From positions 1 through 10,938 of the IMG/VR virus record IMGVR_UViG_3300029212_000210: a stretch of 10,938 nt of DNA. The stretch is one strand, 5' to 3'. Shown here piece after piece: positions 1 to 10,938 of the stretch (positions within the stretch are counted from its first letter, which is position 1; every line of letters begins with the position of its first letter). The translations under genes were made by a program, and so were the position numbers. Source of the stretch: a virus. Lineage: Duplodnaviria > Heunggongvirae > Uroviricota > Caudoviricetes. Below the pieces are notes generated by a model. That model did no database searches. It saw only the letters and a list, made by a program, of their open reading frames with translations, and was not told the DNA's origin.

Positions 1-816
1 ACGGTCTATCTTGGGGCAGGTTTAACTGAGCAGGATATTAATTATTTCTGCTTTTACTGGGATGATGTGGTTATTCTAGATAGTGAAAATATTCACTCGA
101 TTGTGCCTAAAGAAAAAGAATTATTAGATAATGGGGTATTACGTAGACCTATTATGAAACATGATGGTATGCTGAATATCCAAGACTTTCCATTTTTATA
201 TACGGAATTTCAGTTGCAGACATTGGATGAATTCAGGAAGAACGAGCCTGCTACTTATTGGCACTTTCATCAAACAGGGGAAAATTTAATATATGATAAA
301 GAACAGAAAACGGCCCTTCAGTTGAGATTGGAGTTGTTTAATGTTCTGAGAATTCCTGATAAAGATGCTCATATAGAAGATATATTACGTTTTAAAGATG
401 ATTGTCAGGATGATCTTAATGCGTTACATGAGTACTTAGAAAAACTGTATACTGAAGTCCTTTATTCTAGAGACCCTAATCTAACGAGGGCTAAAAATTT
501 TTCTTTATTACAAGAGGCTGTAGTTAATCTTGATAAAGCTATCGAAGGGAAATGGAGAAATCCTATCAGAATGGGAGTCAAAGCCAATCCAGAAGTAGAT
601 GGTGGGCAGGTTATGGAATTTTTAAAACCGTTGTACCATGCTGCTATTGCTGGTTATTCAGGCGGTATTATTCCCGGTATGGTTACAGCCTTGGCAACCG
701 CAATTCCAAGTTTTATAAAATTCCAACCAGAATGGGTGGGCTTTAGAGATAAGGGGCCTAAAGAATTAGCTTATCTTACCAAAGCAACGCATAAGGGGTT
801 GATTAAGAGAGCTTAA
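1..816 (+). CDS. Hypothetical protein, 5'-partial. The frame is open from position 1 and the ORF track starts it at a GTG at 67. AT-rich cargo gene in the P2 tin/old hotspot, with a hydrophobic C-terminal segment.
   Basis: Seen: an uninterrupted frame-1 ORF from the window edge to the stop at 814-816. GC is about 35% against about 55-60% in the neighbouring structural genes (counted by eye on sample stretches). Hydrophobic stretch GYSGGIIPGMVTALATAIPSFIKF near the C-terminus. I recognise no named family. Confidence 0.6.
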   Translation, partial: TVYLGAGLTEQDINYFCFYWDDVVILDSENIHSIVPKEKELLDNGVLRRPIMKHDGMLNIQDFPFLYTEFQLQTLDEFRKNEPATYWHFHQTGENLIYDKEQKTALQLRLELFNVLRIPDKDAHIEDILRFKDDCQDDLNALHEYLEKLYTEVLYSRDPNLTRAKNFSLLQEAVVNLDKAIEGKWRNPIRMGVKANPEVDGGQVMEFLKPLYHAAIAGYSGGIIPGMVTALATAIPSFIKFQPEWVGFRDKGPKELAYLTKATHKGLIKRA

Positions 817-918
817 GGCATTTTAATCGATTTTCGCAACTATATTCCTTCGTAACCACACAAGTGCATGACTATGCCGCATGAATCCGCATGATCGTTT
901 GAGGATCGTTTTAGCTGA

Positions 919-947
919 GGCCCGCTAGGAATGGCGGGCCTTTGCTT
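919..947 (+). terminator. Putative rho-independent terminator downstream of the cargo ORF
   Basis: Seen: stem GGCCCGC (919-925) paired with GCGGGCC (934-940), 8-nt loop, then TTTGCTT. Confidence 0.5.
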
Positions 948-988
948 ATGTCATGCAGGCGCATGAAAACCACTACATAAAGCGGGCA

Positions 989-1007
989 GGCGTGGCGGGG
1001 ATACGAG
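989..1007. other. Putative cos (cohesive-end) site of the P2-like genome
   Basis: Seen: GGCGTGGCGGGGATACGAG, located between the hotspot ORF and the 3' end of Q. Established (from memory): the P2 and 186 cohesive ends begin GGCG(A/T)GGCGGGGAAAGCA and lie next to the Q gene. The exact cut positions are not determinable here. Confidence 0.5.
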
Positions 1008-1095
1008 CGCGCGCAACGGGGTAAAATGGCCAAAATCCGGCGCAGCCTCTGGCCCGCTGGCAGCCTCATTTTGCGTAGGGGGAAAATGTCAGGAC

Positions 1096-1131
1096 AAAAA
1101 GAAACGCCCTGCAGAATGCTGCTGGGGCGTT
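1096..1131 (-). terminator. Rho-independent terminator of the P-Q operon
   Basis: Seen: inverted repeat AACGCCC (1103-1109) / GGGCGTT (1125-1131) with an inner GCAG/CTGC pair. On the minus strand it is followed by UCUUUUUGU (plus-strand A-run 1096-1102), 36 nt past the Q stop. Confidence 0.6.
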
Positions 1132-1166
1132 GTGAGAATTGGTCAGTTATTGATGTTGTGAGTATG

Positions 1167-2216
1167 TCAGCCTCGTTTGCTCTTAAGTCCTAAGTCATAG
1201 GTTTCAAAACGGATCACCTTTTCACCCAGCCAGTTGTTAAGCTCCAGCAGTCGCTTTTGCAGTGGCATCAGCTCATTGCGGACGAAAACACGGCTCGCCT
1301 TTTCCACATCACCGAAGCCGCCAGTGTTGTTGGGAATGATACCCATCATTTGCGGCGGTACGCGGTGTGCCGCCATCATGTCGTCCCGACTCACGTTCTT
1401 GATGTTCAGAAATTCATCCTTCGCCGCGACTTCCGACAACGGGATGATCTGAAGCCCGTCCTTTTTGCCGTTAGGCGAGTACATAAACAGGTTACGGAAG
1501 TTACCAGGACCTTTGGCACTTTTCATTGCGTTGCGGAGGTTGTTCACATCCTCCTGGTTCTGCGCGGCGTCGGTCATGTACATGATGAAGCCCGCATGGC
1601 TGCCGTTAATGTAATACTTCCGGCGGAACAGCGTGGCGGACTCGTTGAGCAGGGCGGATGGAATGGCAGAAAGGTAACCTGGCAGACCATAAATCTCCTG
1701 GTTGATATCCGGCTCCATCAGGTGGAAGACGTTACCTTTTGTGAACTGATACGGCTGTGTCGTCAGGCTGTATTGCACAAACCAGTAGGTATCCAGGTCT
1801 AACCCGCGTCGGGTGTATTTTGCCAGCGCAGGTTCAAGGGCGATAACTTCACCGAAGCGGTTCGTGCGTTTCTCCAGGTAGGCGTTACCAAATACCAGAT
1901 AGTCCTGCACAAAACGTGAAAAAGCCTGCTGGCTGAGCAGTGGGTGAGGGATATAGGTGCTGGTCAGAATGTTGCACTTTACTGCAATCGGTGAGCTGTG
2001 GTGTACGGCGGCGCGGAATGTTCGCGCCAGGCCGTCGAAACTCACAGGCGGCTCATACCAGCGGTCCATCTGTACGCATTCCACATAGTCCAGCAGTTCG
2101 CGGCGGTCAAGTACTGGAACGGGATCACCGAAGCTGAATGCTTCGGCTGAAGTCTGGCTTTTATGCTGAATCTGGTTCGTCGACGCAGCGCGGTTCTTCT
2201 TACTCTTTCCCATCAA
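1167..2216 (-). CDS. Q: Portal protein (P2 gpQ family)
   Basis: 349-aa ORF. Position and orientation match P2 Q (next to cos, transcribed toward cos, ATGA overlap with the P stop). The sequence matches my recollection of P2 gpQ. Confidence 0.9.
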   Translation of the reverse strand: MMGKSKKNRAASTNQIQHKSQTSAEAFSFGDPVPVLDRRELLDYVECVQMDRWYEPPVSFDGLARTFRAAVHHSSPIAVKCNILTSTYIPHPLLSQQAFSRFVQDYLVFGNAYLEKRTNRFGEVIALEPALAKYTRRGLDLDTYWFVQYSLTTQPYQFTKGNVFHLMEPDINQEIYGLPGYLSAIPSALLNESATLFRRKYYINGSHAGFIMYMTDAAQNQEDVNNLRNAMKSAKGPGNFRNLFMYSPNGKKDGLQIIPLSEVAAKDEFLNIKNVSRDDMMAAHRVPPQMMGIIPNNTGGFGDVEKASRVFVRNELMPLQKRLLELNNWLGEKVIRFETYDLGLKSKRG

Positions 2217-3979
2217 AAAATCTCCACAATATTGCTGGTATTGGCGGACTCGCCCTGCAGCGGTTCGTTAAACAGTGCGTGCATTGTTGCCCAGGCCAGA
2301 TCGGCGTGGCTGGCTTCTTCGCTGCGGCTGGCTTCATAGGTCGGGCGGTTGCCGCTGGCGGTGGTTGCGCGACGGATTGCCATGAATGACTGCGCAATGT
2401 CGGTGTGTCCGGCGTCAAACTCCAGACGGCGGTGGCTGATAATGTCGTAGGCCTTGAGTACCAGGGCATTTTTAACATTGGGGTTATAGACAAACTCCCG
2501 GACGGCAGGAAAGAAAGCTTTCACGTTCTCATAAACCCCGTGACCAACGCCGGTCGAGTCGATACCGATATACGTAACGTTGTACTGTTCGGTGAGTTTT
2601 TTGATGGCGTCAGCCTGGGCGCGGAAGTCCATCCCGCGCCACTGGTGACGCTCAAGAATGCGGAACTTACCACCCGGCACGGCTGGCGGAGCCACCACCA
2701 CGCATCCGGCACTGTCGCCGTTCTGCGTACCTTTTGCCGGGTCATAACCGATCCACACTTCGCGCCAGCCAAACGGGCGCAGCGCCAGTGCATGAAAGTC
2801 GGTCCAGACTTCCCAGCTGTCCACCATGCACGCCTGCAGCTCGCTGAGCGGGAACACGGACGCGAGATCGTCCACGAACTCACACATCAGCAGGTTCTGG
2901 TATTCGTCCGGGCTGTACTCCATGCGCAACTGGCCGAGGTCGAACAGGTTACAGCCACCGCGCACCGCATCTTCCACGGTGACTATCTGGCGGTATTGCC
3001 CGTCTGCGCACAGCAGGCCGGGGGCCAGATTGCTGTGGGACAGGTCGATGTCCACCTTGTCAGCTTTGTTGCGCCCACGGTTGAACAGCGCACCGGACCA
3101 GAACGGATAAGCACTGTGGGTCAGACTGGATGGTGTGGAAAAATAGGTCTGCCGCCATTTCTTGTGAATAGCCATACCGGAAGCCACTTTGCGTAGCTCC
3201 TGAAATTTCGGTATCCAGAAATATTCATCCAGATACAGGTTGCCGTGATAACTCTGGGCCGTGCGGGCATTGGTGCCGAGGAAGTAAAGCGTGGCCCCGT
3301 TAGGAAGCACCATCGGATCGCCTTTCAGCTCCACCTCCACTTCTTTGGCGAAGTCGATGATGTACTGCTTAAAGACGTGGGCCTGTGCCTTACTGGCGGA
3401 AAGGAAAATCTGGTTACGCCCGGTAAGCAGGGCGTCAATCAGGGCTTCACGGGCAAAGTAAAAGGTCGCGCCGATCTGGCGTGACTTCAGCAGGTTGCGG
3501 ATGCGGTTGGTTTTTCCGGCTTCCCACCAGTGGCGCTGGTAGTTGAACATGGAGGAATGGAAGATTTCTTCCAGCTTCTCAATCTGTTCATCGGTGAAGA
3601 CATTTTTTTCCGGCTGACGGCGCGGGCCTTTGTTGCGGTTGGCGACGTTAGGGTTTAAGTCGGCTTCGTTGCCGCCATTGTTAAACTTGCCGATCCGCGC
3701 GTGGCGCTCAGACTGGCGCGCCAGCAGGTCAATCTCTTTGAAATCTTTCCCTTCTTTGTGCTCCTTCATAATGAGCTGGCAGTAGCGTGCGGCGGTGGTG
3801 AGCTGCATCTGATCCAGCGGCCCATAGTCACCCCACTTGTCGCGTTTTTTCCAGCTGTGAACGGTTGCAACTTTCTCGCCCAGCATTTCAGCAATGCGGG
3901 CGACGCGGTATCCCTGAAAGTACAGCAGCATGGCCTGCCGACGGGGATCGAGATCTGCGGGTGTCAGTGTGGTGTTCAT
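2213..3979 (-). CDS. P: Terminase large (ATPase) subunit (P2 gpP family)
   Basis: 588-aa ORF immediately upstream of Q on the same strand. Length and sequence are consistent with P2 gpP (about 590 aa). Confidence 0.92.
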   Translation of the reverse strand: MNTTLTPADLDPRRQAMLLYFQGYRVARIAEMLGEKVATVHSWKKRDKWGDYGPLDQMQLTTAARYCQLIMKEHKEGKDFKEIDLLARQSERHARIGKFNNGGNEADLNPNVANRNKGPRRQPEKNVFTDEQIEKLEEIFHSSMFNYQRHWWEAGKTNRIRNLLKSRQIGATFYFAREALIDALLTGRNQIFLSASKAQAHVFKQYIIDFAKEVEVELKGDPMVLPNGATLYFLGTNARTAQSYHGNLYLDEYFWIPKFQELRKVASGMAIHKKWRQTYFSTPSSLTHSAYPFWSGALFNRGRNKADKVDIDLSHSNLAPGLLCADGQYRQIVTVEDAVRGGCNLFDLGQLRMEYSPDEYQNLLMCEFVDDLASVFPLSELQACMVDSWEVWTDFHALALRPFGWREVWIGYDPAKGTQNGDSAGCVVVAPPAVPGGKFRILERHQWRGMDFRAQADAIKKLTEQYNVTYIGIDSTGVGHGVYENVKAFFPAVREFVYNPNVKNALVLKAYDIISHRRLEFDAGHTDIAQSFMAIRRATTASGNRPTYEASRSEEASHADLAWATMHALFNEPLQGESANTSNIVEIF

Positions 3980-4025
3980 GGCACAAACCTACAGTCTTGA
4001 ATGAAGGCTTTCCCCGCCTGCGGTT

Positions 4026-4043
4026 TGTGTGGTTGTCGGTACA
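4026..4043. promoter_or_regulatory. Candidate Ogr-dependent late-promoter element (TGT-N12-ACA dyad) in the divergent P/O intergenic region
   Basis: Seen: TGTgtggttgtcggtACA, centred about 88 bp upstream of the O start codon. Established: P2 late promoters carry a TGT-N12-ACA element centred near -55. This pattern also occurs by chance a few times per 10 kb, so the position is what supports it. Confidence 0.5.
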
Positions 4044-4121
4044 AATACCGCGCATTGTTTCACTGCCCTCATCACCGCAACCATAAGGCTCCAGTAAGTT
4101 TTTTCTAACGGAGCACGGCTC

Positions 4122-4955
4122 ATGACAGTGAAAGCAAAGCGTTTTCGCATCGGGGTGGAAGGTGCCACTACCGACGGACGTGAAATCCAGCGTGAATGGC
4201 TGGAACAGATGGCAGCCAGCTACAACCCGGCGGTGTATACCGCGCTGATTAACCTTGAACACATCAAGTCTTATCTGCCGGACAGCACCTTTAACCGCTA
4301 CGGCAAGGTGACGGCGCTGTTTGCTGAAGAAATCACGGAAGGTCCGTTGGCAGGCAAGATGGCGCTGTATGCCGACGTTGAGCCAACGGAATCCCTGGTG
4401 GAACTGGTGAAAAAAGGCCAGAAATTATTCACCTCTATGGAAGTCAGCCCGAAGTTTGCTGATACGGGCAAAGCCTACCTGGTCGGCCTGGCTGCCACTG
4501 ATGACCCTGCCAGTCTGGGCACTGAAATGCTGACATTCAGCGCCAGTGCAGCCCATAACCCACTGGCAAACCGCAAGCAGAATCCTGCCAATCTCTTTAC
4601 CGCTGCAGAGGAAACGGTGATCGAACTGGAAGAAATCCAGGACGACAAACCGTCCCTGTTTGCCCGTGTCACGGCGCTGTTTACCAAAAAAGAGCAGTCC
4701 GATGACGCCCGGTTCGCTGATGTGCATAAGGCCGTGGAGCTGGTCGCCACTGAGCAGCAGAACCTGAGCGCACGCACCGAAAAATCCCTGTCTGAGCAGG
4801 AAGAACGCCTGTCTGAGCTGGAGACAGCCCTGCAGGCACAGCTGACCGCCTTTAACGAACTGGTGGACAAGCTGAGCCATGAAGACAGCCGCCAGGACTA
4901 CCGCCAGCGTGCAACAGGCGGTAACGCCCCCGCTGACACTCTGACCAATTGCTGA
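4122..4955 (+). CDS. O: Capsid scaffolding protein (P2 gpO family)
   Basis: 277-aa ORF, first gene of the rightward head operon. The acidic, coiled-coil-like middle and a C-terminus ending in TNC resemble P2 gpO. Confidence 0.88.
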   Translation: MTVKAKRFRIGVEGATTDGREIQREWLEQMAASYNPAVYTALINLEHIKSYLPDSTFNRYGKVTALFAEEITEGPLAGKMALYADVEPTESLVELVKKGQKLFTSMEVSPKFADTGKAYLVGLAATDDPASLGTEMLTFSASAAHNPLANRKQNPANLFTAAEETVIELEEIQDDKPSLFARVTALFTKKEQSDDARFADVHKAVELVATEQQNLSARTEKSLSEQEERLSELETALQAQLTAFNELVDKLSHEDSRQDYRQRATGGNAPADTLTNC

Positions 4956-4971
4956 TGGAGCACAAAACCTG

Positions 4972-6030
4972 ATGAAGAAGAATACCCGCTTTGCTTTTAA
5001 CGCTTACCTGCAGCAGCTGGCGCGTCTGAACGGTGTGGCTGTTGAAGAACTGTCCAGCAAATTCACCGTAGAGCCGTCTGTACAGCAGACGCTGGAAGAC
5101 CAGATCCAGCAGTCCGCCGCTTTCCTGACGCTGATTAATGTCACCCCGGTGACTGAACAGTCCGGTCAGTTGCTTGGATTGGGGGTTGGCAGCACCATTG
5201 CAGGAACCACTGATACCTCCGCGAAAGAGCGTGAGCCTGTCGATCCGACGCTGATGGTCGATGTGGAATATAAATGCGAGCAGACCAACTTTGACACGGT
5301 GCTGACCTACGCGAAGCTGGACCTGTGGGCGAAGTTTCAGGATTTCCAGGTGCGTATCCGTGACGCCATCGTGAAACGTCAGGCACTGGACCGCATCATG
5401 ATCGGCTTTAACGGCGTGAAGCGTGCGAAAACCTCCAACCGTAGCGAAAACCCGCTGCTGCAGGATGTGAACAAAGGCTGGCTGCAGAAAATCCGTGAGG
5501 ATGCATCGGATCACGTCATGGGCAGCACCACCACGGGCGGTGAAACCACACCGGGTGCGGTGAAAGTCGGGAAAGGTGGCGAATATGCCAACCTGGACGC
5601 AGTGGTGATGGATGCCGTCAATGAGCTTATCGACGTGGTCTACCAGGACGATGACGATCTGGTGGTGATTTGCGGGCGTGAACTGCTGTCTGACAAGTAT
5701 TTCCCGCTGGTCAACAAAGAGCAGGAAAACAGTGAAAAACTGGCTGCCGATATGATCATCAGTCAGAAGCGCATGGGGGGCCTGCAGGCCGTGCGTGCGC
5801 CGTTCTTCCCGCCGAATGCATTGCTGATCACCCGTCTGGATAACCTGTCCATCTACTGGCAGGAAGACACCCGTCGCCGTTCAGTTATCGACAACCCGAA
5901 ACGTGACCGGATTGAAAATTTTGAATCCGTTAACGAAGCCTATGTGGTTGAGGACTACCGCTGCGCCGCACTGGTGGAAAACATCCAGATTGGCGATTTC
6001 AGCGCCGCTGCAGCAGAAACCGGAGCGTAA
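4972..6030 (+). CDS. N: Major capsid protein (P2 gpN family)
   Basis: 352-aa ORF following O. Strong resemblance to my recollection of P2 gpN (for example the FAFNAYL, FTVEPSV and MIGFNGVKRA..SNRS.NPLLQDV stretches). Confidence 0.92.
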   Translation: MKKNTRFAFNAYLQQLARLNGVAVEELSSKFTVEPSVQQTLEDQIQQSAAFLTLINVTPVTEQSGQLLGLGVGSTIAGTTDTSAKEREPVDPTLMVDVEYKCEQTNFDTVLTYAKLDLWAKFQDFQVRIRDAIVKRQALDRIMIGFNGVKRAKTSNRSENPLLQDVNKGWLQKIREDASDHVMGSTTTGGETTPGAVKVGKGGEYANLDAVVMDAVNELIDVVYQDDDDLVVICGRELLSDKYFPLVNKEQENSEKLAADMIISQKRMGGLQAVRAPFFPPNALLITRLDNLSIYWQEDTRRRSVIDNPKRDRIENFESVNEAYVVEDYRCAALVENIQIGDFSAAAAETGA

Positions 6031-6033
6031 TTC

Positions 6034-6684
6034 ATGAGCCTGAGTCCCGCACGGCAGCATCGCCTGCGCGTCCAGGCTGAACAGGCCGCCCGCGAGGGCG
6101 GCAGTGTTCGCCACGCGTCGGGCTATGACCTGATGCTGCTGCAACTGGCGGAAGACCGCCGCCGTCTCAAGGGTGTTCAGTCCACGGTCAAAAAAGCGGA
6201 AATCAAGGTGGAGCTGCTGCCGAAGTACGCCGACTGGGCAGAGGGTGTCCTGGCTGCCGGAGGCGCACAGCAGGATGACGTGCTGATGTACGTGATGCTG
6301 TGGCGCATTGATGCCGGAGATTATGCCGGGGCGCTGGAGATCGGGCGTCACGCCCTGCGTCATGGCTGGGTGATGCCGTTAGGTAACCGCAACGTGCAGA
6401 CCGTGCTGGCAGAGGAAATGGCAGATGCAGCCCAGAGCGCAATGCTTGCCGCCACCGGCTTTGATGCCGATCTGTTGCTGCAGACGCTGGAGCTGACAGA
6501 CGGTATGGATATGCCGGACCAGTCACGGGCGCGTCTGCATAAAGCGATTGGCGCTGTCCTGAGTGAAAACAATCCGGCGTCCGCCCTTAATCATCTCAAC
6601 CATGCGTTACAGCTCGATCCCCGCTGTGGCGTGAAAAAAGACAAACAGCAGCTGGAGCGCAGACTGCGCAATGACAGCCGCTGA
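6034..6684 (+). CDS. M: Terminase small (endonuclease) subunit (P2 gpM family)
   Basis: 216-aa ORF directly after N (3-nt gap). Resembles P2 gpM (for example QDD.LM.VMLWR.D.GD.AGALEI, GVKK). Confidence 0.87.
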   Translation: MSLSPARQHRLRVQAEQAAREGGSVRHASGYDLMLLQLAEDRRRLKGVQSTVKKAEIKVELLPKYADWAEGVLAAGGAQQDDVLMYVMLWRIDAGDYAGALEIGRHALRHGWVMPLGNRNVQTVLAEEMADAAQSAMLAATGFDADLLLQTLELTDGMDMPDQSRARLHKAIGAVLSENNPASALNHLNHALQLDPRCGVKKDKQQLERRLRNDSR

Positions 6685-6704
6685 CAGAACGTGCCCCCGC
6701 GCAC

Positions 6705-6765
6705 GGGCGGCACGGGGTGGCGAAAGGCACTGCCACATCAAAACCCCGTCCACCGCCCTTTATTT
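6705..6765 (+). terminator. GC-rich stem-loop followed by TTTATTT between M and L. Possible attenuator or processing structure.
   Basis: Seen: GGGCGG-c-ACGGGG (6705-6717) pairs with CCCCGT-cca-CCGCCC (6744-6758), with an inner GTGGC/GCCAC hairpin, followed by TTTATTT (6759-6765) just before the L ribosome-binding site. Confidence 0.3.
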
Positions 6766-6779
6766 CAGGAGAAAGCAGC

Positions 6780-7313
6780 ATGAAGTTTGTTGCGCCAGAA
6801 CAGGCACCGGAACAGGCGGAAATCATCAGAAATACGCCGTTCTGGCCTGATGTGGACCTGTCGGAGTTTCGCAGTGTCATGCGCACTGACGGCACGGTGA
6901 CGCAGCCGCGTTTAAAGCAGGTTGCGCTGTCGGCAATTTCGGAGGTCAACGCAGAGCTGTATGAGTTTCGCAGACGCCAGCAGATGCTGGGGTATGCCTC
7001 GCTGGCAGAGATTCCGGCGGAACAGCTGGACGGCAAAAGTGAGCGCATTCAGCACTATTTCAACGCGGTTTACTGCTGGGCACGCGCCATGCTCAACGAA
7101 CGTTACCAGGACTATGACACCACGGCATCCGGTGTGAAGCGGGGCGAGGAACTGGCGGAAGCCAGCGGTGATTTATGGCGTGACGCCCGCTGGGCCATCA
7201 GCCGGGTACTCGAGGCCGGAGAATCAAGACAGCGTATTGCACTGATTTTTGATGTAGGCGTTTCTACCATTTATAGAAAATTTCCGGCAAATAAGATCAA
7301 TGAATCCCCCTGA
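6780..7313 (+). CDS. L: Head completion/stabilisation protein (P2 gpL family)
   Basis: The ORF track starts it at 6717, but an in-frame ATG at 6780 is preceded by AGGAGA and gives 177 aa, comparable to P2 gpL (169 aa). NTPFWPD.DL..FR and RRDARWAISR.L motifs match gpL. The C-terminal 25 aa are diverged. Confidence 0.82.
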   Translation: MKFVAPEQAPEQAEIIRNTPFWPDVDLSEFRSVMRTDGTVTQPRLKQVALSAISEVNAELYEFRRRQQMLGYASLAEIPAEQLDGKSERIQHYFNAVYCWARAMLNERYQDYDTTASGVKRGEELAEASGDLWRDARWAISRVLEAGESRQRIALIFDVGVSTIYRKFPANKINESP

Positions 7314-7361
7314 ATCAGCATTATGTTGATTATCCCTGCAAGCAGACAAATACCGTTATTT

Positions 7362-7379
7362 TGTGTGAATAACGACACA
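7362..7379 (+). promoter_or_regulatory. Candidate Ogr-dependent late promoter (F-promoter equivalent), TGT-N12-ACA dyad
   Basis: Seen: TGTgtgaataacgacACA, centred about 85 bp upstream of the FI-fragment start codon. Same reasoning as the O-promoter dyad. Confidence 0.5.
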
Positions 7380-7455
7380 ACTGCGCTTAGCTGTTTGTCA
7401 GGCACAATCACTTCAACATAGGGCGAAGCCTAATCCAATCAGGAGGTTCGCCACT

Positions 7456-7866
7456 ATGGCTCAGGATTACCACCACGGGGTGCGCGTTGTTGAAGTCAAC
7501 GAAGGCACCCGATCTATTACCACGGTGAGCACCGCCATCGTGGGTATGGTCTGCACGGGCGATGATGCCGATGCAAAAATGTTTCCTCTTAATAAACCCG
7601 TGCTGATCACTGATGTGCTGACTGCCAGCGGTAAAGCGGGTGAGTCCGGTACTCTGGCCCGTTCGCTGGATGCCATCGCTGACCAGGCAAAACCCGTGAC
7701 CATTGTTGTGCGTGTGCCGCAGGGTGAAACGGAAGACGAAACCACGACCAATATCATCGGCGCAGTGACTGCTGAAGGTAAAAAAACAGGTATGAAAGCC
7801 CTGTTAACCGAAGTGCTGGAATGGCGGTATAAAGCGATTCAGAGAAGCGGGGCCAACGATGAGTGA
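7456..7866 (+). pseudogene. FI: Tail sheath (P2 gpFI family) N-terminal fragment, about 122 codons, fused in frame to about 14 unrelated codons that end in an ATGA overlap with the next ORF
   Basis: Seen: 136-aa ORF with an AGGAGG ribosome-binding site. The first ~120 aa match my recollection of the P2 gpFI N-terminus (DYHHGV.V.E.NEGTR, TVSTAIVGMVCT, FPLNKPVLIT, IADQ.KPVT). Full-length FI is about 396 aa. Confidence 0.72.
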
Positions 7867-8959
7867 TAACAACCTGCGTCTGCAGGTCATTCTTAATGCG
7901 GTTGACAAGCTCACCCGCCCATTTCGATCTGCGCAGGCCAGTTCAAGAGAACTGGCTGCTGCTGTCAAAAAATCCCGCGATGCAATAAAGCAGCTTGATC
8001 AGGCCGGGAGCAGTCTGGACAGCTTCCGAAAGCTGCAGGCAGAAAATCAGAAATTAGGCGACAGGCTGAACTATGCCCGCCAGCGTGCAAATTTGCTCAG
8101 TCAGGAACTGGGAGCGATGGGGCCGCCTTCGCAACGTCAGGTTGTTGCTCTGGGCCGTCAACGGCTGGCTGTTCAGCGCCTGGAAGAACGCCAGAAAAAG
8201 CTGCAGCAGCAGACGGCGCTTGTGCGTGCTGAACTGTACCGGGCGGGAATTTCTGCGAAAGACGATGCGGGAGCAACTGCCCGTTTAGCCCGTGAAACAT
8301 CACGTTATAACCAGGAACTTTCGAAACAGGAGGCGCGGCTGAAGCGACTGGGGGAAGCTCAGCGCAGGATGAATGCAGCGCGTGCCAGTTATGCCCGTTC
8401 GCTGGAGGTGCGTGATCGTATTGCAGGTGCCGGAGCCACCACCACGGCTGCAGGGCTGGCAATGGGTGCGCCAGTGATGGCGGCAGTAAAAAGCTATACC
8501 AGCATGGAAGATGCCATGAAAGGTGTGGCAAAGCAGGTCAATGGTCTGCGTGACGATACCCGCGAACCCGCGAAGAAAGAAAGCACCACGGTGAAGCGTA
8601 AGCGCAGGACTAAGAAGCAGAAGAAAGAGCCGGAAGCGAAGCAGGGCGATTACCTGGTGGGTACGGATGAAAACGTGCTGGTACTTAATCGCACCTATGC
8701 CAACCGGAGCAACGCCGAACGGGCGGCAAAAATGCAGTGGGAACGCCTGCAACGCGGCGTTGCGTCATTCTCGCTACAACTGGCGGAAGGGCGGGCAGAT
8801 CTCTACACGGAAATGCCTGTGAAGGTCAGTGGTTTTAAACAGCCGATAGATGATGCGGAATGGACCATTACGACTCTGACACATACCGTCAGCCCGGATA
8901 ACGGTTTTACAACCAGTATTGAACTCGAAGTGAAGATTGATGATCTTGAAATGGAATAA
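7859..8959 (+). pseudogene. In-frame fusion of a tail tape-measure (gpT-like) N-terminal ~235 aa to the tail protein D (gpD-like) C-terminal ~130 aa
   Basis: Seen: 366-aa ORF. The N-terminal part is helical and coiled-coil-like with a Gly/Ala-rich hydrophobic segment, and sits where T should be. The C-terminal part (lysine-rich linker, then ERLQRGVA.FSLQLAEGRADLYTE.PVKVSGFK ... GFTTS.ELEV) matches the gpD C-terminus as I recall it, and sits directly upstream of ogr as D does in P2. Junction near 8560-8580. Confidence 0.62.
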
Positions 8960-8991
8960 AGTGTTCTCAATATTGATATTTTGTGTATCAT

Positions 8992-8997
8992 TACAAT
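8992..8997 (+). promoter_or_regulatory. Possible -10 hexamer (TACAAT) of the ogr promoter
   Basis: Seen: TACAAT about 30 nt upstream of the ogr start in an AT-rich spacer. No convincing -35 at 17 bp. Confidence 0.3.
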
Positions 8998-9027
8998 GAT
9001 TCTGATAGCAAAGGTAGGGATCTGGAT

Positions 9028-9246
9028 ATGATGAATTGTCCAAAGTGTGGTCATGCGGCACACACAAGGAGCAGTTTTCAAGTAACTGAAAGCACCAAAG
9101 AGCGTTACTGCCAGTGCCAAAATATTAACTGCGGGAGCACTTTTGTTACCCATGAAACAGTGGTCCGGTTTATTGTGACACCCGCACTGATTGCTACTGC
9201 TCCTCCACATCCATTGCCAGGTGGTCAGGGGCATATGAATTTTTGA
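9028..9246 (+). CDS. ogr: Late transcription activator Ogr (C4 zinc-finger)
   Basis: Seen: the ATG at 9028 (or 9031) is preceded by AGGTAGGGA and gives 72 aa with the CPKCGH...CQCQNINC zinc-finger pattern, equal in length to P2 Ogr. The ORF-track start at 8983 is a GTG further upstream and is not preferred. Confidence 0.9.
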   Translation: MMNCPKCGHAAHTRSSFQVTESTKERYCQCQNINCGSTFVTHETVVRFIVTPALIATAPPHPLPGGQGHMNF

Positions 9247-9253
9247 GAAAGAG

Positions 9254-9276
9254 AACCTGCTACGGCAGGTTTTTAT
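9254..9276. terminator. Bidirectional rho-independent terminator between convergent ogr and the BRCT-like ORF
   Basis: Seen: AACCTGC (9254-9260), loop TACG, GCAGGTT (9265-9271), then TTTTATT on the plus strand and CUCUUUCUC on the minus strand. It overlaps the minus-strand stop codon. Confidence 0.6.
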
Positions 9277-9755
9277 TCATCTGGGATCTCACCCGTTTCA
9301 AGAAAATGTATAAAGCCAGGCTCATCTATGATGATTGTGCCTTTCATCCTGGCTGCCGATACTTTTGATGGGCCTGCATTGTAACCGCAACAGAGCATCT
9401 GAAGGCTTTGGGTTACAGAGGTTCTTACCGTTAATCCTTGTTCATTCGCCTTATCAACCAATCTTTCTTTATCTGCTTTCTTAAATCCGGTGAAACACAC
9501 ATCGAATGTATTTTTTTTCGGACCAGACTGCTTAGTGAGATGTGAGTAGCTTTCGGGGAGGAATGACGCGCATTCCTGAATGGCTTGTTCTGGTGAATCG
9601 TACTGTTTAAGAATGCGGTCTTTTCGGAAGGTTTTTATTCGATCGGTGTTCTTACAAATGCCCTGTATATGATTTTCGCTATAACTGATGCTCTGTATAG
9701 AGTGAACACCGATACGACCATTTGCATTGATGTAAACAAAGTGAAGTTCTTCCAT
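9273..9755 (-). CDS. Hypothetical protein with a C-terminal BRCT-like domain and a small beta-rich N-terminal domain that is possibly WYL-like
   Basis: Seen: 160-aa ORF with an AGAGG ribosome-binding site 6 nt upstream of the ATG. GC is about 42%, lower than the prophage backbone. The C-terminal ~80 aa (FDVCFTGF..ADKERL..KA.EQGL.V..SV...L..L..G.N.G.SK...A...G..II.E..F..FL) fit the BRCT pattern seen in the LigA C-terminus. The N-terminal motif R.KTFRKDRI resembles the end of WYL domains. Domain calls are from pattern memory only. Confidence 0.65.
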   Translation of the reverse strand: MEELHFVYINANGRIGVHSIQSISYSENHIQGICKNTDRIKTFRKDRILKQYDSPEQAIQECASFLPESYSHLTKQSGPKKNTFDVCFTGFKKADKERLVDKANEQGLTVRTSVTQSLQMLCCGYNAGPSKVSAARMKGTIIIDEPGFIHFLETGEIPDE

Positions 9756-9781
9756 GTGAAACCTCTTTGCATGATTTCAAG

Positions 9782-9820
9782 ATGGCGACAGGCAAGATGG
9801 ACGCAAAAGTCTGTCGCCAT
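9782..9820. repeat. Perfect 10-bp inverted repeat ATGGCGACAG / CTGTCGCCAT separated by 19 bp, overlapping a CAAGATGG direct repeat
   Basis: Seen: arms at 9782-9791 and 9811-9820. CAAGATGG occurs at 9778-9785 and 9793-9800. Located between the BRCT-like ORF start and the ssrA terminator. Confidence 0.45.
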
Positions 9821-9835
9821 TTTGCCGCCACTACC

Positions 9836-9870
9836 AAAGAAAAAGGGGCTACGCTTTCACGTAACCCCTT
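9836..9870 (-). terminator. Rho-independent terminator of ssrA
   Basis: Seen (minus strand): AAGGGG-u-UACG, loop UGAAAG, CGUA-g-CCCC, followed by UUUUUCUUU, starting 9 nt after the tmRNA CCA end. Confidence 0.6.
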
Positions 9871-9878
9871 GATTTATT

Positions 9879-10241
9879 TGGTGGAGCTGGCGGGAGTTGA
9901 ACCCGCGTCCGAAATTCCTACATCCTCGGTACTACATGCTTAGTCAGTCTTTACATTCGCTTGCCAGCTGCGGACGGACACGCCACTAACAAACTAGCCT
10001 GATTAAGTTTTAACGCTTCAACCCCAGGCAGGGCTTCCACGCGATCTCTTTTGGGTTTGACCTCTCTTGATCCCCGTCCTAAGAGCGGAGGCTAGGGAGA
10101 GAGGGCTCTAAGCAGGTTATTAAGCTGCTAAAGCGTAGTTTTCGTCGTTTGCGACTATTTTTTGCGGCTTTTTACGAGGCCAACCGCCCCTCGGCATGCA
10201 CCTTGGGTTTCGCAAATCCCGTCGAATCCAGAATCAGCCCC
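9879..10241 (-). ncRNA. ssrA: tmRNA (SsrA), complete, 363 nt
   Basis: Seen: the reverse complement runs from GGGGCTGATTCTGGATTCGACGGG to GTTCAACTCCCGCCAGCTCCACCA and includes the tag-encoding stretch GCAAACGACGAAAACTACGCTTTAGCAGCTTAA (ANDENYALAA). It matches E. coli ssrA as I recall it. Confidence 0.97.
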
Positions 10242-10255
10242 AATGTGTAAAGGTA

Positions 10256-10261
10256 AGTATA
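10256..10261 (-). promoter_or_regulatory. Possible -10 hexamer (TATACT) of the ssrA promoter
   Basis: Seen: TATACT on the minus strand, 14 nt upstream of the mature tmRNA 5' end. Established: tmRNA is made as a precursor with a short 5' leader. No convincing -35. Confidence 0.3.
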
Positions 10262-10455
10262 CCAGATTTATGAGCGCCATGACCAGCCTCAATGGCGTTA
10301 TCGTTAAAGATTTAGCACCCATGTAGCCTGATTTTTATTCGATTAAGCAATGGGATGGCAACATTTGTGTCGGATGTGATAGCCAATAAGATGTTCATTC
10401 GCGCCGCCGGAGAGGGAGGCGCGGTGAGGAACTGGTCAATAATTGGAGTGCAGGT

Positions 10456-10938
10456 TTAACGGTGGGCGTTTTTCATGATACGCGCTTTATCCACCTGCCA
10501 TTCGCGCTCTTTGATATCTGAACGTTTATCGTGCTGTTTCTTACCTTTGGCGACGCCGATTTTCACTTTGCACCAGGCATTTTTCCAGTACAGGGAGAGC
10601 GCCACTACGGTATAGCCTTCTCGATTGACGCGACCGTACAATGAGTCCAGTTCGCGCTGGTTGAGAAGTAACTTGCGGGTACGGGTAGGATCGCACACCA
10701 CATGCGTGGAGGCCACTGCCATTGGCGTGATGTTTGCGCCAAACAGGAACGCTTCTCCGTCACGCAGAAGGACATAGCTGTCGCTGATATTGGCTTTTCC
10801 TGCGCGCAGGGATTTAACTTCCCAGCCTTGCAGGGCAAGTCCCGCTTCGAACTCTTCTTCGATAAAGTATTCGTGACGGGCGCGCTTGTTAAGCGCGATG
10901 GTCGCTGAACCAGGTTTATGTGCTTTTTTCTTCGTCAT
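10456..10938 (-). CDS. smpB: SsrA-binding protein SmpB, complete. The start codon is the last 3 nt of the window.
   Basis: 160-aa ORF that matches E. coli SmpB as I recall it, upstream of ssrA on the same strand, which is the conserved arrangement. Confidence 0.96.

What the first reader, a model, noticed from the sequence alone, without database searches (positions are those of the whole stretch)
7314..7455. About 140 bp joins gene L directly to the F-promoter region; the whole X-to-G block is missing
Seen: after the L stop at 7313 there is only a short AT-rich spacer carrying a TGT-N12-ACA dyad, then the FI fragment. Established: in P2 this interval holds X, holin Y, endolysin K, lysA/B/C, R, S, V, W, J, I, H, G and the Z/fun variable locus, roughly 10 kb. 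Inference: a large deletion with its junction between about 7314 and 7360, which is also where the second known P2 cargo hotspot (Z/fun, upstream of FI) would lie. The element cannot lyse the cell or build a baseplate or fibres on its own.
Basis: partly seen in the sequence, partly recalled or inferred. Interest (0 to 1): 0.55.

Follow-up and report, generated by a model that had tools for sequence, protein, structure and literature searches.

The report
Deletion scar in defective P2-like prophage
The window holds a decayed P2/186-type prophage of E. coli that lost its lysis, baseplate and tail-fibre genes in an 8.6-kb deletion.

Summary
Against intact relatives, the break is at 7207-7209 (3-bp microhomology TAC), inside the ORF read as "gene L". 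That ORF is a chimera. It joins L codons 1-143 in frame to the last 34 codons of a Hin/Gin-type DNA invertase, so the "L stop" at 7313 is the invertase stop.

The interval 7314-7455 is not a scar or a Z/fun remnant. It is the intact invertase-to-FI intergenic region, identical to phage 500465-1 and differing at one base from E. coli 22-245. It carries the TGT-N12-ACA Ogr box (7362-7379) of late promoter PF.

About 8.6 kb is missing, from the L 3' end through X, lysis, baseplate and fibre genes to the invertase 5' part. Two further in-frame deletions follow: FI::E' at 7806|7807 and T::D at 8556-8558. They arose stepwise, because the FI::E' joint occurs alone in other genomes.

The element sits at ssrA in E. 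coli and recurs in at least 10 contigs, mostly gut-metagenome assemblies. This is ordinary prophage decay.

One thing is unexplained. The right-hand endpoint of each of the three deletions is reused, to the nucleotide, by independent remnants whose left endpoints differ.

The parts
989..1007 (+). cos-like site (GGCGTGGCGGGGATACGAG), about 160 bp from the end of gene Q, as in P2
   Evidence: 14 of 19 bases match P2 cosL, at the equivalent position. Cleavage was not tested.
1167..6684 (.). Intact head and packaging genes: Q (1167-2213, -), P (2213-3979, -), O (4122-4955, +), N (4972-6030, +), M (6034-6684, +)
   Evidence: ORF lengths equal those of intact prophages. Window 1-7209 differs at only 2 bases from the E. 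coli 22-245 prophage.
4026..4043 (.). TGT-N12-ACA dyad in the P-O divergent intergenic region (late promoters PP/PO); a second copy lies at 3968-3985
   Evidence: The position matches the known P2 late promoters (PMC3931495). Function is inferred.
6780..7209 (+). Gene L (head completion), codons 1-143 only; the last 11 codons are lost
   Evidence: Colinear with intact L up to L001 13435 / L016 27209. Pfam Phage_GPL, E = 4e-47. Protein comparison.
7207..7209 (.). Junction J1 of the 8.6-kb deletion; the 3-bp microhomology TAC is shared by both parental sequences
   Evidence: The right-hand endpoint is reused by IMG/VR locus L165.
7207..7313 (+). 3' remnant of a Hin/Gin/Cin/Pin-type DNA invertase gene (codons 155-188 plus stop), read in frame with L
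   Evidence: 99.7% identical to phage 500465-1 at 22056-22162, inside the gene annotated 'DNA invertase'. Pfam HTH_7. Frames checked.
7314..7455 (+). Native invertase-to-FI intergenic region carrying late promoter PF
   Evidence: Identical to intact phage 500465-1 over these 142 bp; one base differs in E. coli 22-245.
7362..7379 (.). Ogr/B activator box TGT-N12-ACA of PF; its centre lies 85.5 bp before the FI ATG
   Evidence: In the P2 record the pF activator site centre is 83 bp before the FI ATG and 58 bp before the transcription start. The start predicted here is near 7428-7431 (inferred).
7456..7806 (+). Tail sheath gene FI, first 117 of 390 codons; ribosome-binding site AGGAGG at 7441-7446
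7806..7807 (.). Junction J2 of a 1,778-bp deletion (FI 3' part, FII, E, E' 5' part); no microhomology
   Evidence: J2 occurs alone, with a full invertase, T, U and D, in L025, L026 and L029. The right endpoint is shared by 5 other independent remnants.
7807..7866 (+). Last 19 codons plus stop of E', fused in frame to the FI fragment (136-aa ORF 7456-7866)
   Evidence: Pfam Phage_P2_GpE on residues 117-134.
7859..8558 (+). Tape-measure gene T, first 233 of 1,025 codons
   Evidence: 100% identical to phage 500465-1 at 24434-25185.
8556..8558 (.). Junction J3 of a 3,556-bp deletion (T, U, D 5' part); microhomology ATA
   Evidence: The right endpoint is shared by L199, L200/L201 and L202.
8559..8959 (+). 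Gene D, codons 234-366, fused in frame to T (366-aa ORF 7859-8959)
9028..9246 (+). Intact ogr (late-gene activator, 72 aa)
   Evidence: Pfam Ogr_Delta, E = 9e-21. Colinear with the gene annotated 'transcriptional regulator' in phage 500465-1.
9273..9755 (-). Cargo gene between ogr and the prophage end (160 aa, weak BRCT match)
9879..10241 (-). ssrA (tmRNA), the integration site; smpB follows at 10456-10938 (-)
   Evidence: ARAGORN. Rfam RF00023, 295.8 bits.

Best explanation
The window is the right-hand two thirds of a defective P2/186-like prophage (Peduoviridae, close to Wadgaonvirus 500465-1) integrated at ssrA in E. coli. Three separate deletions, each with 0-3 bp of microhomology, removed about 14 kb of the late region.

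- D1: 8.6 kb, from the last 11 codons of L through X, holin, endolysin, LysA/B/C, R, S, V, W, J, I, H, G and the invertible fibre segment into codon 154 of the DNA invertase gene. Junction at 7207-7209.
- D2: 1.8 kb, FI codon 118 to E' codon 20. Junction at 7806|7807.
- D3: 3.6 kb, T codon 234 to D codon 233. Junction at 8556-8558.

D2 came first, or at least arose independently of the other two. The interval 7314-7455 was never rearranged. It is the phage's own PF late-promoter region, with the Ogr-binding dyad about 60 bp upstream of the expected start and a Shine-Dalgarno sequence before FI.

Shown:
- The colinearity and the breakpoints.
- The chimeric ORFs.
- The occurrence of D2 alone.

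Inferred:
- The element cannot lyse cells or build tails.
- If Ogr were expressed, PF would drive only the FI::E' and T::D fusion peptides.
- The deletions arose by illegitimate, microhomology-guided joining.
For: - blastn of the window against intact phage 500465-1 gives four colinear blocks with three gaps.
- One intact prophage, in E. coli 22-245, matches 1-7209 at 99.97%, 7207-7806 at 99.67% and 7807-8558 at 99.87%. Both sides of D1 and D2 therefore come from one phage type.
- The annotation of both intact references lists the missing genes in the gaps.
- The L ORF carries Phage_GPL plus HTH_7, and the FI ORF carries a sheath domain plus the GpE tail.
- All three fusions are in frame and end at the natural stops of the invertase, E' and D genes.
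- The same triple-deleted arrangement, 100% identical, is found in contigs from several samples and assemblers.
- J2 occurs without J1 or J3 in GCA_013057625.1 and two Logan contigs.
- The geometry of PF matches the annotated pF of P2.
- The consensus and the four late promoters of P2 are described in PMC3931495.
- The host flank is 100% identical to E. coli chromosomes.
Against: - No single intact prophage matches all four blocks at 99% or more. The 22-245 prophage differs in the D-ogr end (85%), and 500465-1 differs in the head genes (95.9%). The parent must have been a mosaic of the two.
- The left end of the element and the rest of the genome were not seen.
- The right endpoints of all three deletions recur in independent remnants. 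Plain random illegitimate recombination does not predict this.
- Promoter activity, expression of the fusions and loss of lysis were not measured.
Confidence: 0.9

Rival explanations
1. L is complete to its stop at 7313. The deletion joint lies in 7314-7360, at the Z/fun cargo hotspot, and the roughly 140 bp is what joins L to the F promoter.
For: The ORF does run without interruption to 7313 and is followed by a non-coding stretch with the Ogr dyad.
Against: Homology to L stops at 7209. From 7207 the sequence is contiguous with invertase-intergenic-FI in intact phages. The ORF tail is a resolvase-type HTH. Intact relatives have an invertase and an invertible segment here, not Z/fun.
Confidence: 0.02
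2. D1 was made by the phage's own serine invertase acting on a crossover site or pseudo-site, as a site-specific deletion.
For: - One endpoint lies in the invertase gene.
- The dinucleotide just left of each recurrent endpoint is shared by almost all partners: AC, TG and TA. This recalls the 2-bp core rule of serine recombinases, which is my own knowledge of the Cin quasi-site work.
- FI position 36475/36476 is used from both sides, and TA is kept in both products.
Against: - The true crossover sites of the intact relative are at L016 33458-33484 and 35335-35361. These lie 6.2 kb and 0.5 kb from the D1 breakpoints.
- Neither the breakpoints nor the recurrent anchors resemble the TTCTC..AAACC/GGTTT..GAGAA half-sites, and no shared motif was found.
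- None of the catalogued junctions ends at a true crossover site.
Confidence: 0.06
3. The joint arose by recombination between two different P2-like prophages, in tandem at ssrA or elsewhere, rather than by deletion within one prophage.
For: The best relatives of the left and right parts differ. The head genes are 99.97% like prophages at the ybjL site, and the D-ogr-ssrA end is 98.5% like 500465-1. Tandem elements at ssrA exist (L005).
Against: One intact prophage carries both flanks of D1 and D2 at 99.7% or better. The identity switch lies at D3 or in gene D, not at J1. The junctions have only 0-3 bp of homology, so they are not homologous exchanges.
Confidence: 0.05
4. The three joints are products of one complex rearrangement, by serial template switching.
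For: Three deletions lie within 15.7 kb of the parent, leaving islands of 600 and 752 bp with microhomologies of 3, 0 and 3 bp. J1 and J3 occur in exactly the same numbers of blocks and contigs of the collection.
Against: J2 is present alone, next to a complete invertase, T, U and D, in three other assemblies.
Confidence: 0.05
5. The remnant is a selected, functional element: a tail-less, lysis-less head-only P2 derivative that a co-resident P2-like helper could mobilise.
For: A cos-like site, Q, P, O, N, M, ogr and the late-promoter boxes are all intact. All three deletions are in frame. Gene A is present to the left.
Against: - The retained genes differ from intact phages at only 2 of 7,209 bases, so no time has passed in which selection could show.
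- L, the head-completion gene, is truncated.
- Three in-frame joints have a chance probability of 0.037, which is not compelling.
- Many other, differently truncated remnants of the same phage exist.
Confidence: 0.06
6. The joints are assembly artefacts.
For: The window comes from a metagenome assembly. No complete RefSeq E. coli genome has these joints.
Against: Identical joints appear in contigs from ENA (three assemblies), JGI, Logan and, for J2, an NCBI isolate genome. De Bruijn assemblers do not join sequences at 0-3 bp overlaps.
Confidence: 0.01

Closest known systems
Late promoter PF of phage P2 (Ogr-dependent; equivalent to the B-dependent late promoters of 186)
   Same: A TGT-N12-ACA dyad upstream of the FI-FII-E-T-U-D operon. 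Its distance to the FI start codon is 85.5 bp, against 83 bp in the annotated P2 record. An intact ogr gene lies downstream (PMC3931495).
   Different: Apart from the dyad, the sequence is not alignable with P2's pF region. Here the promoter follows an invertase gene instead of Z/fun, and it now drives only fusion fragments.
Cryptic or defective P2-like prophage remnants of E. coli, such as the ogrK / D' remnant of K-12 (own knowledge), and the general picture of prophage decay by deletion (PMC6379469, listed but not read)
   Same: A P2-type prophage that has lost essential late genes by deletion while keeping ogr and part of D. Many analogous remnants with other deletions were found here: F829, FORC_082, KSC64, IH5, strain 639, FG92-1 and L007.
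   Different: This one keeps the complete head module and the replication gene A, and it sits at ssrA. It is very young, with at most 0.3% divergence from intact phages.
Hin/Gin/Cin/Pin invertible tail-fibre switches of phages Mu, P1, e14 and P2-like prophages (PMC4272514)
   Same: The intact relatives carry a 188-aa serine invertase next to an invertible H/G fibre segment, flanked by 26-27-bp inverted crossover sites.
   Different: In the window only the last 34 codons (the HTH) survive, fused to L. The catalytic domain, the enhancer, both crossover sites and the invertible segment are gone.
One-ended deletions anchored at a recombination or nick site, such as Int-promoted lambda deletions ending at att, or deletions ending at the nick site of rolling-circle replicons (own knowledge)
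   Same: Deletions have one nucleotide-precise, reused endpoint and one variable endpoint, with 2-5 bp of identity at the joint.
   Different: No recombinase site, origin, IS end or shared motif could be recognised at the three anchors. There are at least three anchors, not one.

Membership tests
P2/186-like prophage (Peduoviridae) | Conserved late gene order: Q and P divergent from O, N, M, L, with FI..T, U, D, ogr at the right end | tested here: met
   ORFs and Pfam domains. 95.9-100% nucleotide identity to Wadgaonvirus 500465-1 and 99.97% to an intact E. coli prophage.
P2/186-like prophage (Peduoviridae) | Complete set of lysis, baseplate, fibre, sheath, tube and tape-measure genes (needed for a functional phage) | tested here: not met
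   Three gaps of 8,623, 1,778 and 3,556 bp relative to the intact phage remove or truncate L, X, Y, K, lysA/B/C, R, S, V, W, J, I, H, G, the invertase, FI, FII, E, E', T, U and D.
Ogr/B/Delta-dependent late promoter | TGT-N12-ACA dyad about 55-60 bp upstream of the transcription start of a late operon | tested here: met
   Dyad at 7362-7379, with the same spacing to FI as in the annotated P2 pF. The surrounding 142-bp region is identical to phage 500465-1, and the single base that differs in E. coli 22-245 lies outside the dyad.
Ogr/B/Delta-dependent late promoter | Transcription that depends on the activator | not testable with these tools
   No expression data. ogr is intact.
Serine DNA invertase (Hin/Gin/Cin/Pin) | N-terminal resolvase catalytic domain with the active-site serine | tested here: not met
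   Only codons 155-188 remain. Pfam finds HTH_7 but no Resolvase domain in the window ORF, whereas intact copies have Resolvase + HTH_7.
Serine DNA invertase (Hin/Gin/Cin/Pin) | Inverted 26-bp crossover sites flanking an invertible segment | tested here: not met
   Present in the intact relative. That region is deleted from the window.
P2 Z/fun cargo hotspot (between G and FI) | Variable, non-phage cargo DNA between the fibre genes and PF | tested here: not met
   7207-7455 is conserved phage DNA (invertase 3' end plus intergenic region) with no cargo ORF.
Phage satellite / capsid-forming island | Own packaging and capsid genes, with dependence on a helper for the remaining virion parts, maintained by selection | tested here: inconclusive
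   The head genes, a cos-like site and gene A are present. L is truncated, and the element is too young for selection to be assessed. Mobilisation is not testable here.

The most novel reading that the evidence does not exclude
The three deletions may not be random decay. Each right-hand endpoint is a nucleotide-precise hotspot reused by independent remnants with unrelated left endpoints:
- Invertase codon 155: 2 events.
- E' codon 20/21: 6 events.
- D codon 234: 4 events.

Almost every partner shares the 2 bases just left of the anchor. At the E' anchor, deletions only run leftwards. This points to a directed, one-sided deletion process acting on P2-like prophages in E. coli. It could be a site-specific nick or replication pause followed by 2-bp-matched joining, or a recombinase using pseudo-sites. 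To my knowledge no such process has been described.
Probability: 0.3. Interest if true: 0.6.

Novelty: new member of a known kind. Interest (0 to 1): 0.25.

Why it matters
For the finding as given, the main value is correct annotation. The "gene L" here is an L::invertase-HTH chimera. The 142-bp interval is an intact Ogr-dependent promoter. The prophage is defective for lysis and for all tail functions, so it should not be scored as an inducible phage, and the interval should not be mined as a cargo hotspot.

The by-product could matter more. If the reused deletion endpoints reflect a specific mechanism, they would show that the inactivation of P2-like prophages in E. coli is channelled through a few sites rather than happening at random. 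That would be directly testable with a counter-selectable marker in a lysogen.

Tried and rejected
- **Junction inside 7314-7360:** rejected by alignment.
- **Significance of TGT-N12-ACA by count:** not significant.
- **Sigma-70 and terminator scans of 7150-7950:** nothing above the shuffles.
- **Rfam:** only tmRNA.
- **The same joints in 5,426 complete E. coli genomes:** none.
- **The same joints in GTDB species representatives and JGI metagenome contigs:** no exact hits. L005 from JGI does carry them through the other index.
- **A parent prophage at ssrA in strains with an identical host flank:** strain TC24 has a CP4-57-like island there instead.
- **Invertase crossover sites at the breakpoints:** none.
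- **One-step complex rearrangement:** rejected, because J2 occurs alone.
- **A shared motif, perfect hairpins, or similarity of the anchors to other parts of the phage:** none found. There is only a modest predicted DNA hairpin at the E' anchor, z = -2.06.
- **Ideas considered by eye and dropped for lack of a match:** Chi sites, EcoKI/EcoBI sites, a type I-E PAM/protospacer, IS ends, and the gyrase consensus. The one exception is that the cut position of an XhoI site (C^TCGAG) coincides with anchor A1, which is probably chance.
- **Literature searches for a described deletion hotspot or for the P2 A-protein nick site:** nothing found.
- **Exact P2 cos sequence:** absent at 3 or fewer mismatches. 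A 186-type variant was found with relaxed matching.

Full report
**What the window is**

The ORFs and their domains give a P2-type late region. Q and P lie on the minus strand. O, N, M and an L-like ORF follow on the plus strand. After these come short ORFs with a sheath fragment, a 366-aa ORF, ogr, a 160-aa cargo gene, ssrA (tmRNA, 9879-10241, minus strand) and smpB.

The window is identical to the first 10,938 bases of a human-gut metagenome contig (ERR589534 k127_20561). The contig's 8.7-kb host flank is 100% identical to E. coli chromosomes. The element is therefore a P2/186-like prophage at ssrA in E. coli. An intact phage at the same site, Escherichia phage 500465-1 (NC_049342.1, Wadgaonvirus), is in the phage collection.

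**Checking the observation**

- A stop codon at 7311-7313.
- A 142-bp non-coding stretch at 7314-7455, 43.7% G+C against 52.6% for the window.
- A perfect TGT-N12-ACA at 7362-7379.
- An FI fragment starting at 7456.

The dyad count is not above chance. There are 4 matches against 2.44 expected.

**Where the joint really is**

blastn against the intact phage gives four colinear blocks:

| Window | Phage 500465-1 | Identity |
|---|---|---|
| 2211-7209 | 8437-13435 | 95.9% |
| 7207-7806 | 22056-22655 | 99.7% |
| 7807-8558 | 24434-25185 | 100% |
| 8556-10938 | 28739-31121 | 98.5% |

The first break is at 7207-7209, where both parents read TAC.

Intact L has 154 codons. The window keeps 143 of them and then continues, in frame, with codons 155-188 and the stop of the DNA invertase gene. 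Pfam finds Phage_GPL plus the resolvase HTH_7 in this 177-aa chimera. The "L stop" is therefore the invertase stop.

From 7207 to 7806 the window is contiguous with the invertase 3' end, the intergenic region and the FI 5' part of intact phages. Within the 142-bp intergenic region it is identical to phage 500465-1 and differs at a single base from the E. coli 22-245 prophage. The flagged interval is thus native DNA, not a joint.

**What is missing**

D1 removes 8,623 bp relative to 500465-1, or 8,670 bp relative to the E. coli 22-245 prophage. The lost genes are the L 3' end, X, holin, endolysin, LysA/B/C, R, S, V, W, J, I, H, the fibre-assembly genes, the invertible segment and 154 codons of the invertase.

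In this lineage the place where P2 has Z/fun is occupied by the invertase switch. Its crossover sites are at L016 33458-33484 and 35335-35361. Such switches in P2-like prophages of E. coli are documented (PMC4272514).

- D2 (1,778 bp) joins FI codon 117 to the last 19 codons of E' at 7806|7807.
- D3 (3,556 bp) joins T codon 233/234 to D codon 234 at 8556-8558, with microhomology ATA.

All three joints are in frame and end at natural stops. The chance of this is (1/3)^3 = 0.037.

**One parent, several steps**

An intact prophage in E. coli 22-245 matches 1-7209 at 99.97%, 7207-7806 at 99.67% and 7807-8558 at 99.87%. D1 and D2 are therefore deletions within one phage type. Only the D-ogr end is of the 500465-1 type, so the parent was a mosaic.

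The triple-deleted arrangement recurs, 100% identical, in ENA, JGI and Logan contigs. J2 also occurs alone, beside a complete invertase, T, U and D, in GCA_013057625.1 and two Logan contigs. The deletions were therefore stepwise, and D2 arose independently of the other two and probably first.

No complete RefSeq E. coli genome has any of the three joints.

**How the retained 142 bp works**

The dyad centre lies 85.5 bp before the FI ATG. In the annotated P2 record the pF activator site centre is 83 bp before the FI ATG and 58 bp before the mapped start. P2's four late promoters share TGT-N12-ACA and depend on Ogr (PMC3931495).

ogr is intact at 9028-9246. Two more dyads lie in the P-O intergenic region.

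I infer that the promoter is still competent and would now express only FI::E' and T::D fusion peptides. This was not tested.

**Rivals**

- **Invertase-mediated deletion.** Unlikely. The breakpoints are far from the true crossover sites and do not resemble them.
- **Recombination between two prophages.** Unnecessary, given the 22-245 prophage.
- **A single complex event.** Contradicted by J2 occurring alone.
- **Assembly artefact.** Excluded by independent assemblies.
- **A selected head-only, helper-dependent element.** Cannot be excluded. A cos-like site at 989-1007, Q, P, O, N, M, gene A and ogr are all intact. Support is weak, because L is truncated and the element is too young to show selection.

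**Context: other remnants**

Many other remnants of the same phage type exist in E. coli, with different deletions. These include F829, FORC_082, KSC64, IH5, strain 639, FG92-1, L007 and several IMG/VR contigs. The finding as stated is therefore ordinary prophage decay.

**An unexplained by-product: reused right endpoints**

Comparing those remnants showed that the right-hand endpoint of each of the window's three deletions is reused to the nucleotide.

- **E' anchor** (..GCTG|ACCGAAGTG, window 7806|7807, L016 38254|38255). Six independent events share it. Their left ends lie in FI (36476, 36882, 37145), gene A (18034), O (24548) and P (22836). As a control, the sequence to the left of the anchor is followed by intact DNA in 122 of 122 IMG/VR loci, so the deletions only run leftwards.
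- **D anchor** (..CATA|CCCGCGAACC, window 8558|8559). It is shared with junctions whose left ends lie in Q (two different positions) and in the invertase gene.
- **Invertase anchor** (..TTTAC|TCGAGG, window 7209|7210). It is shared with IMG/VR locus L165.

By contrast, the left end of J1 is not reused.

The two bases left of each anchor are shared by nearly all partners:

| Anchor | Dinucleotide | Partners sharing it |
|---|---|---|
| Invertase | AC | 2 of 2 |
| E' | TG | 5 of 6 |
| D | TA | 4 of 4 |

FI position 36475/36476 is the left end of J2 and also the right start of another remnant's deletion, and both products keep TA.

I found no shared motif, no resemblance to the invertase sites, and only a modest hairpin at the E' anchor. 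The sample was gathered ad hoc. Even so, three further junctions turned up at one pre-specified nucleotide among 119 loci that were chosen only for carrying the neighbouring 29-mer. That is far beyond chance. The mechanism is unknown.

**Verdict**

The feature is a new instance of a known kind, a defective P2-like prophage, and is of low interest in itself. The reused deletion endpoints are an unexplained side observation worth a systematic survey.

Noticed in passing
window 7806|7807 (= L016 38254|38255); also L031, L034, L081, L091, L151: Six independent deletions in P2-like E. coli prophage remnants resume at exactly the same base in E' (..TG|ACCGAAGTGCTGG). Their left ends are unrelated: three in FI, and one each in A, O and P. 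No deletion runs rightwards from this site in 122 control loci. The mechanism is unknown.
   Followed up: partly
window 8558|8559 (= L001 28741|28742); L199, L200/L201, L202: The right endpoint of the T::D deletion (..TA|CCCGCGAACC in gene D) is shared by three other distinct junctions, whose left ends lie in Q (two positions) and in the invertase gene.
   Followed up: partly
window 7209|7210 (= L016 35879|35880); L165 4932-4967: An otherwise largely intact IMG/VR prophage also keeps only the last 107 nt of the invertase gene. It is joined at the same base (..TTAC|TCGAGG) to different DNA. An XhoI site (C^TCGAG) has its cut position exactly here, which is probably coincidence.
   Followed up: partly
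window 6780-7313, 7456-7866, 7859-8959: All three deletion joints are in frame. T and D are both broken 699 nt from their own start codons, so the T::D fusion is 366 aa, the same length as D. Across the remnants examined, in-frame same-strand joints are over-represented. The first tally gave 7 of 10, p about 0.02, from an ad hoc sample.
   Followed up: partly
L016 36475-36476 (= window 7805-7806) and L158: The FI position that ends the window's sheath fragment is also where another remnant's P|FI deletion resumes. Both products keep the dinucleotide TA, as a 2-nt staggered break would give.
   Followed up: partly
L031 (E. coli F829, NZ_OY754443.1 2976522-2997731): An independent remnant of the same phage type at the ybjL site has parallel losses: P-O-N, endolysin-to-invertase (an in-frame K::invertase fusion with an 8-11 nt overlap), and FI-to-E'. 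It also has a frameshifted T.
   Followed up: partly
L005 / L027 (JGI 3300076444), from locus position about 2925: The same remnant is followed, 45 nt into the 3' end of ssrA, by a different element with its own integrase. Islands therefore sit in tandem at ssrA in some strains.
   Followed up: no
window 9273-9755 (-) and window 1-816 (+): There are two cargo genes at the usual P2 hotspots. A 160-aa protein with a weak BRCT match (annotated 'DNA ligase' in 500465-1) lies between ogr and the prophage end. A DUF6236 protein (290 aa in full) lies between DinI and cos/Q.
   Followed up: no
L020 (Logan SRR22216082_14282): This contig ends exactly at J2 (window 7806). This fits a graph branch caused by a second, intact P2-like prophage in that sample.
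   Followed up: no
window 3968-3985: A TGT-N12-ACA dyad overlaps the start codon of P (3979). This is an odd place for an activator site. It may be chance, or part of the divergent PP/PO control region.
   Followed up: no
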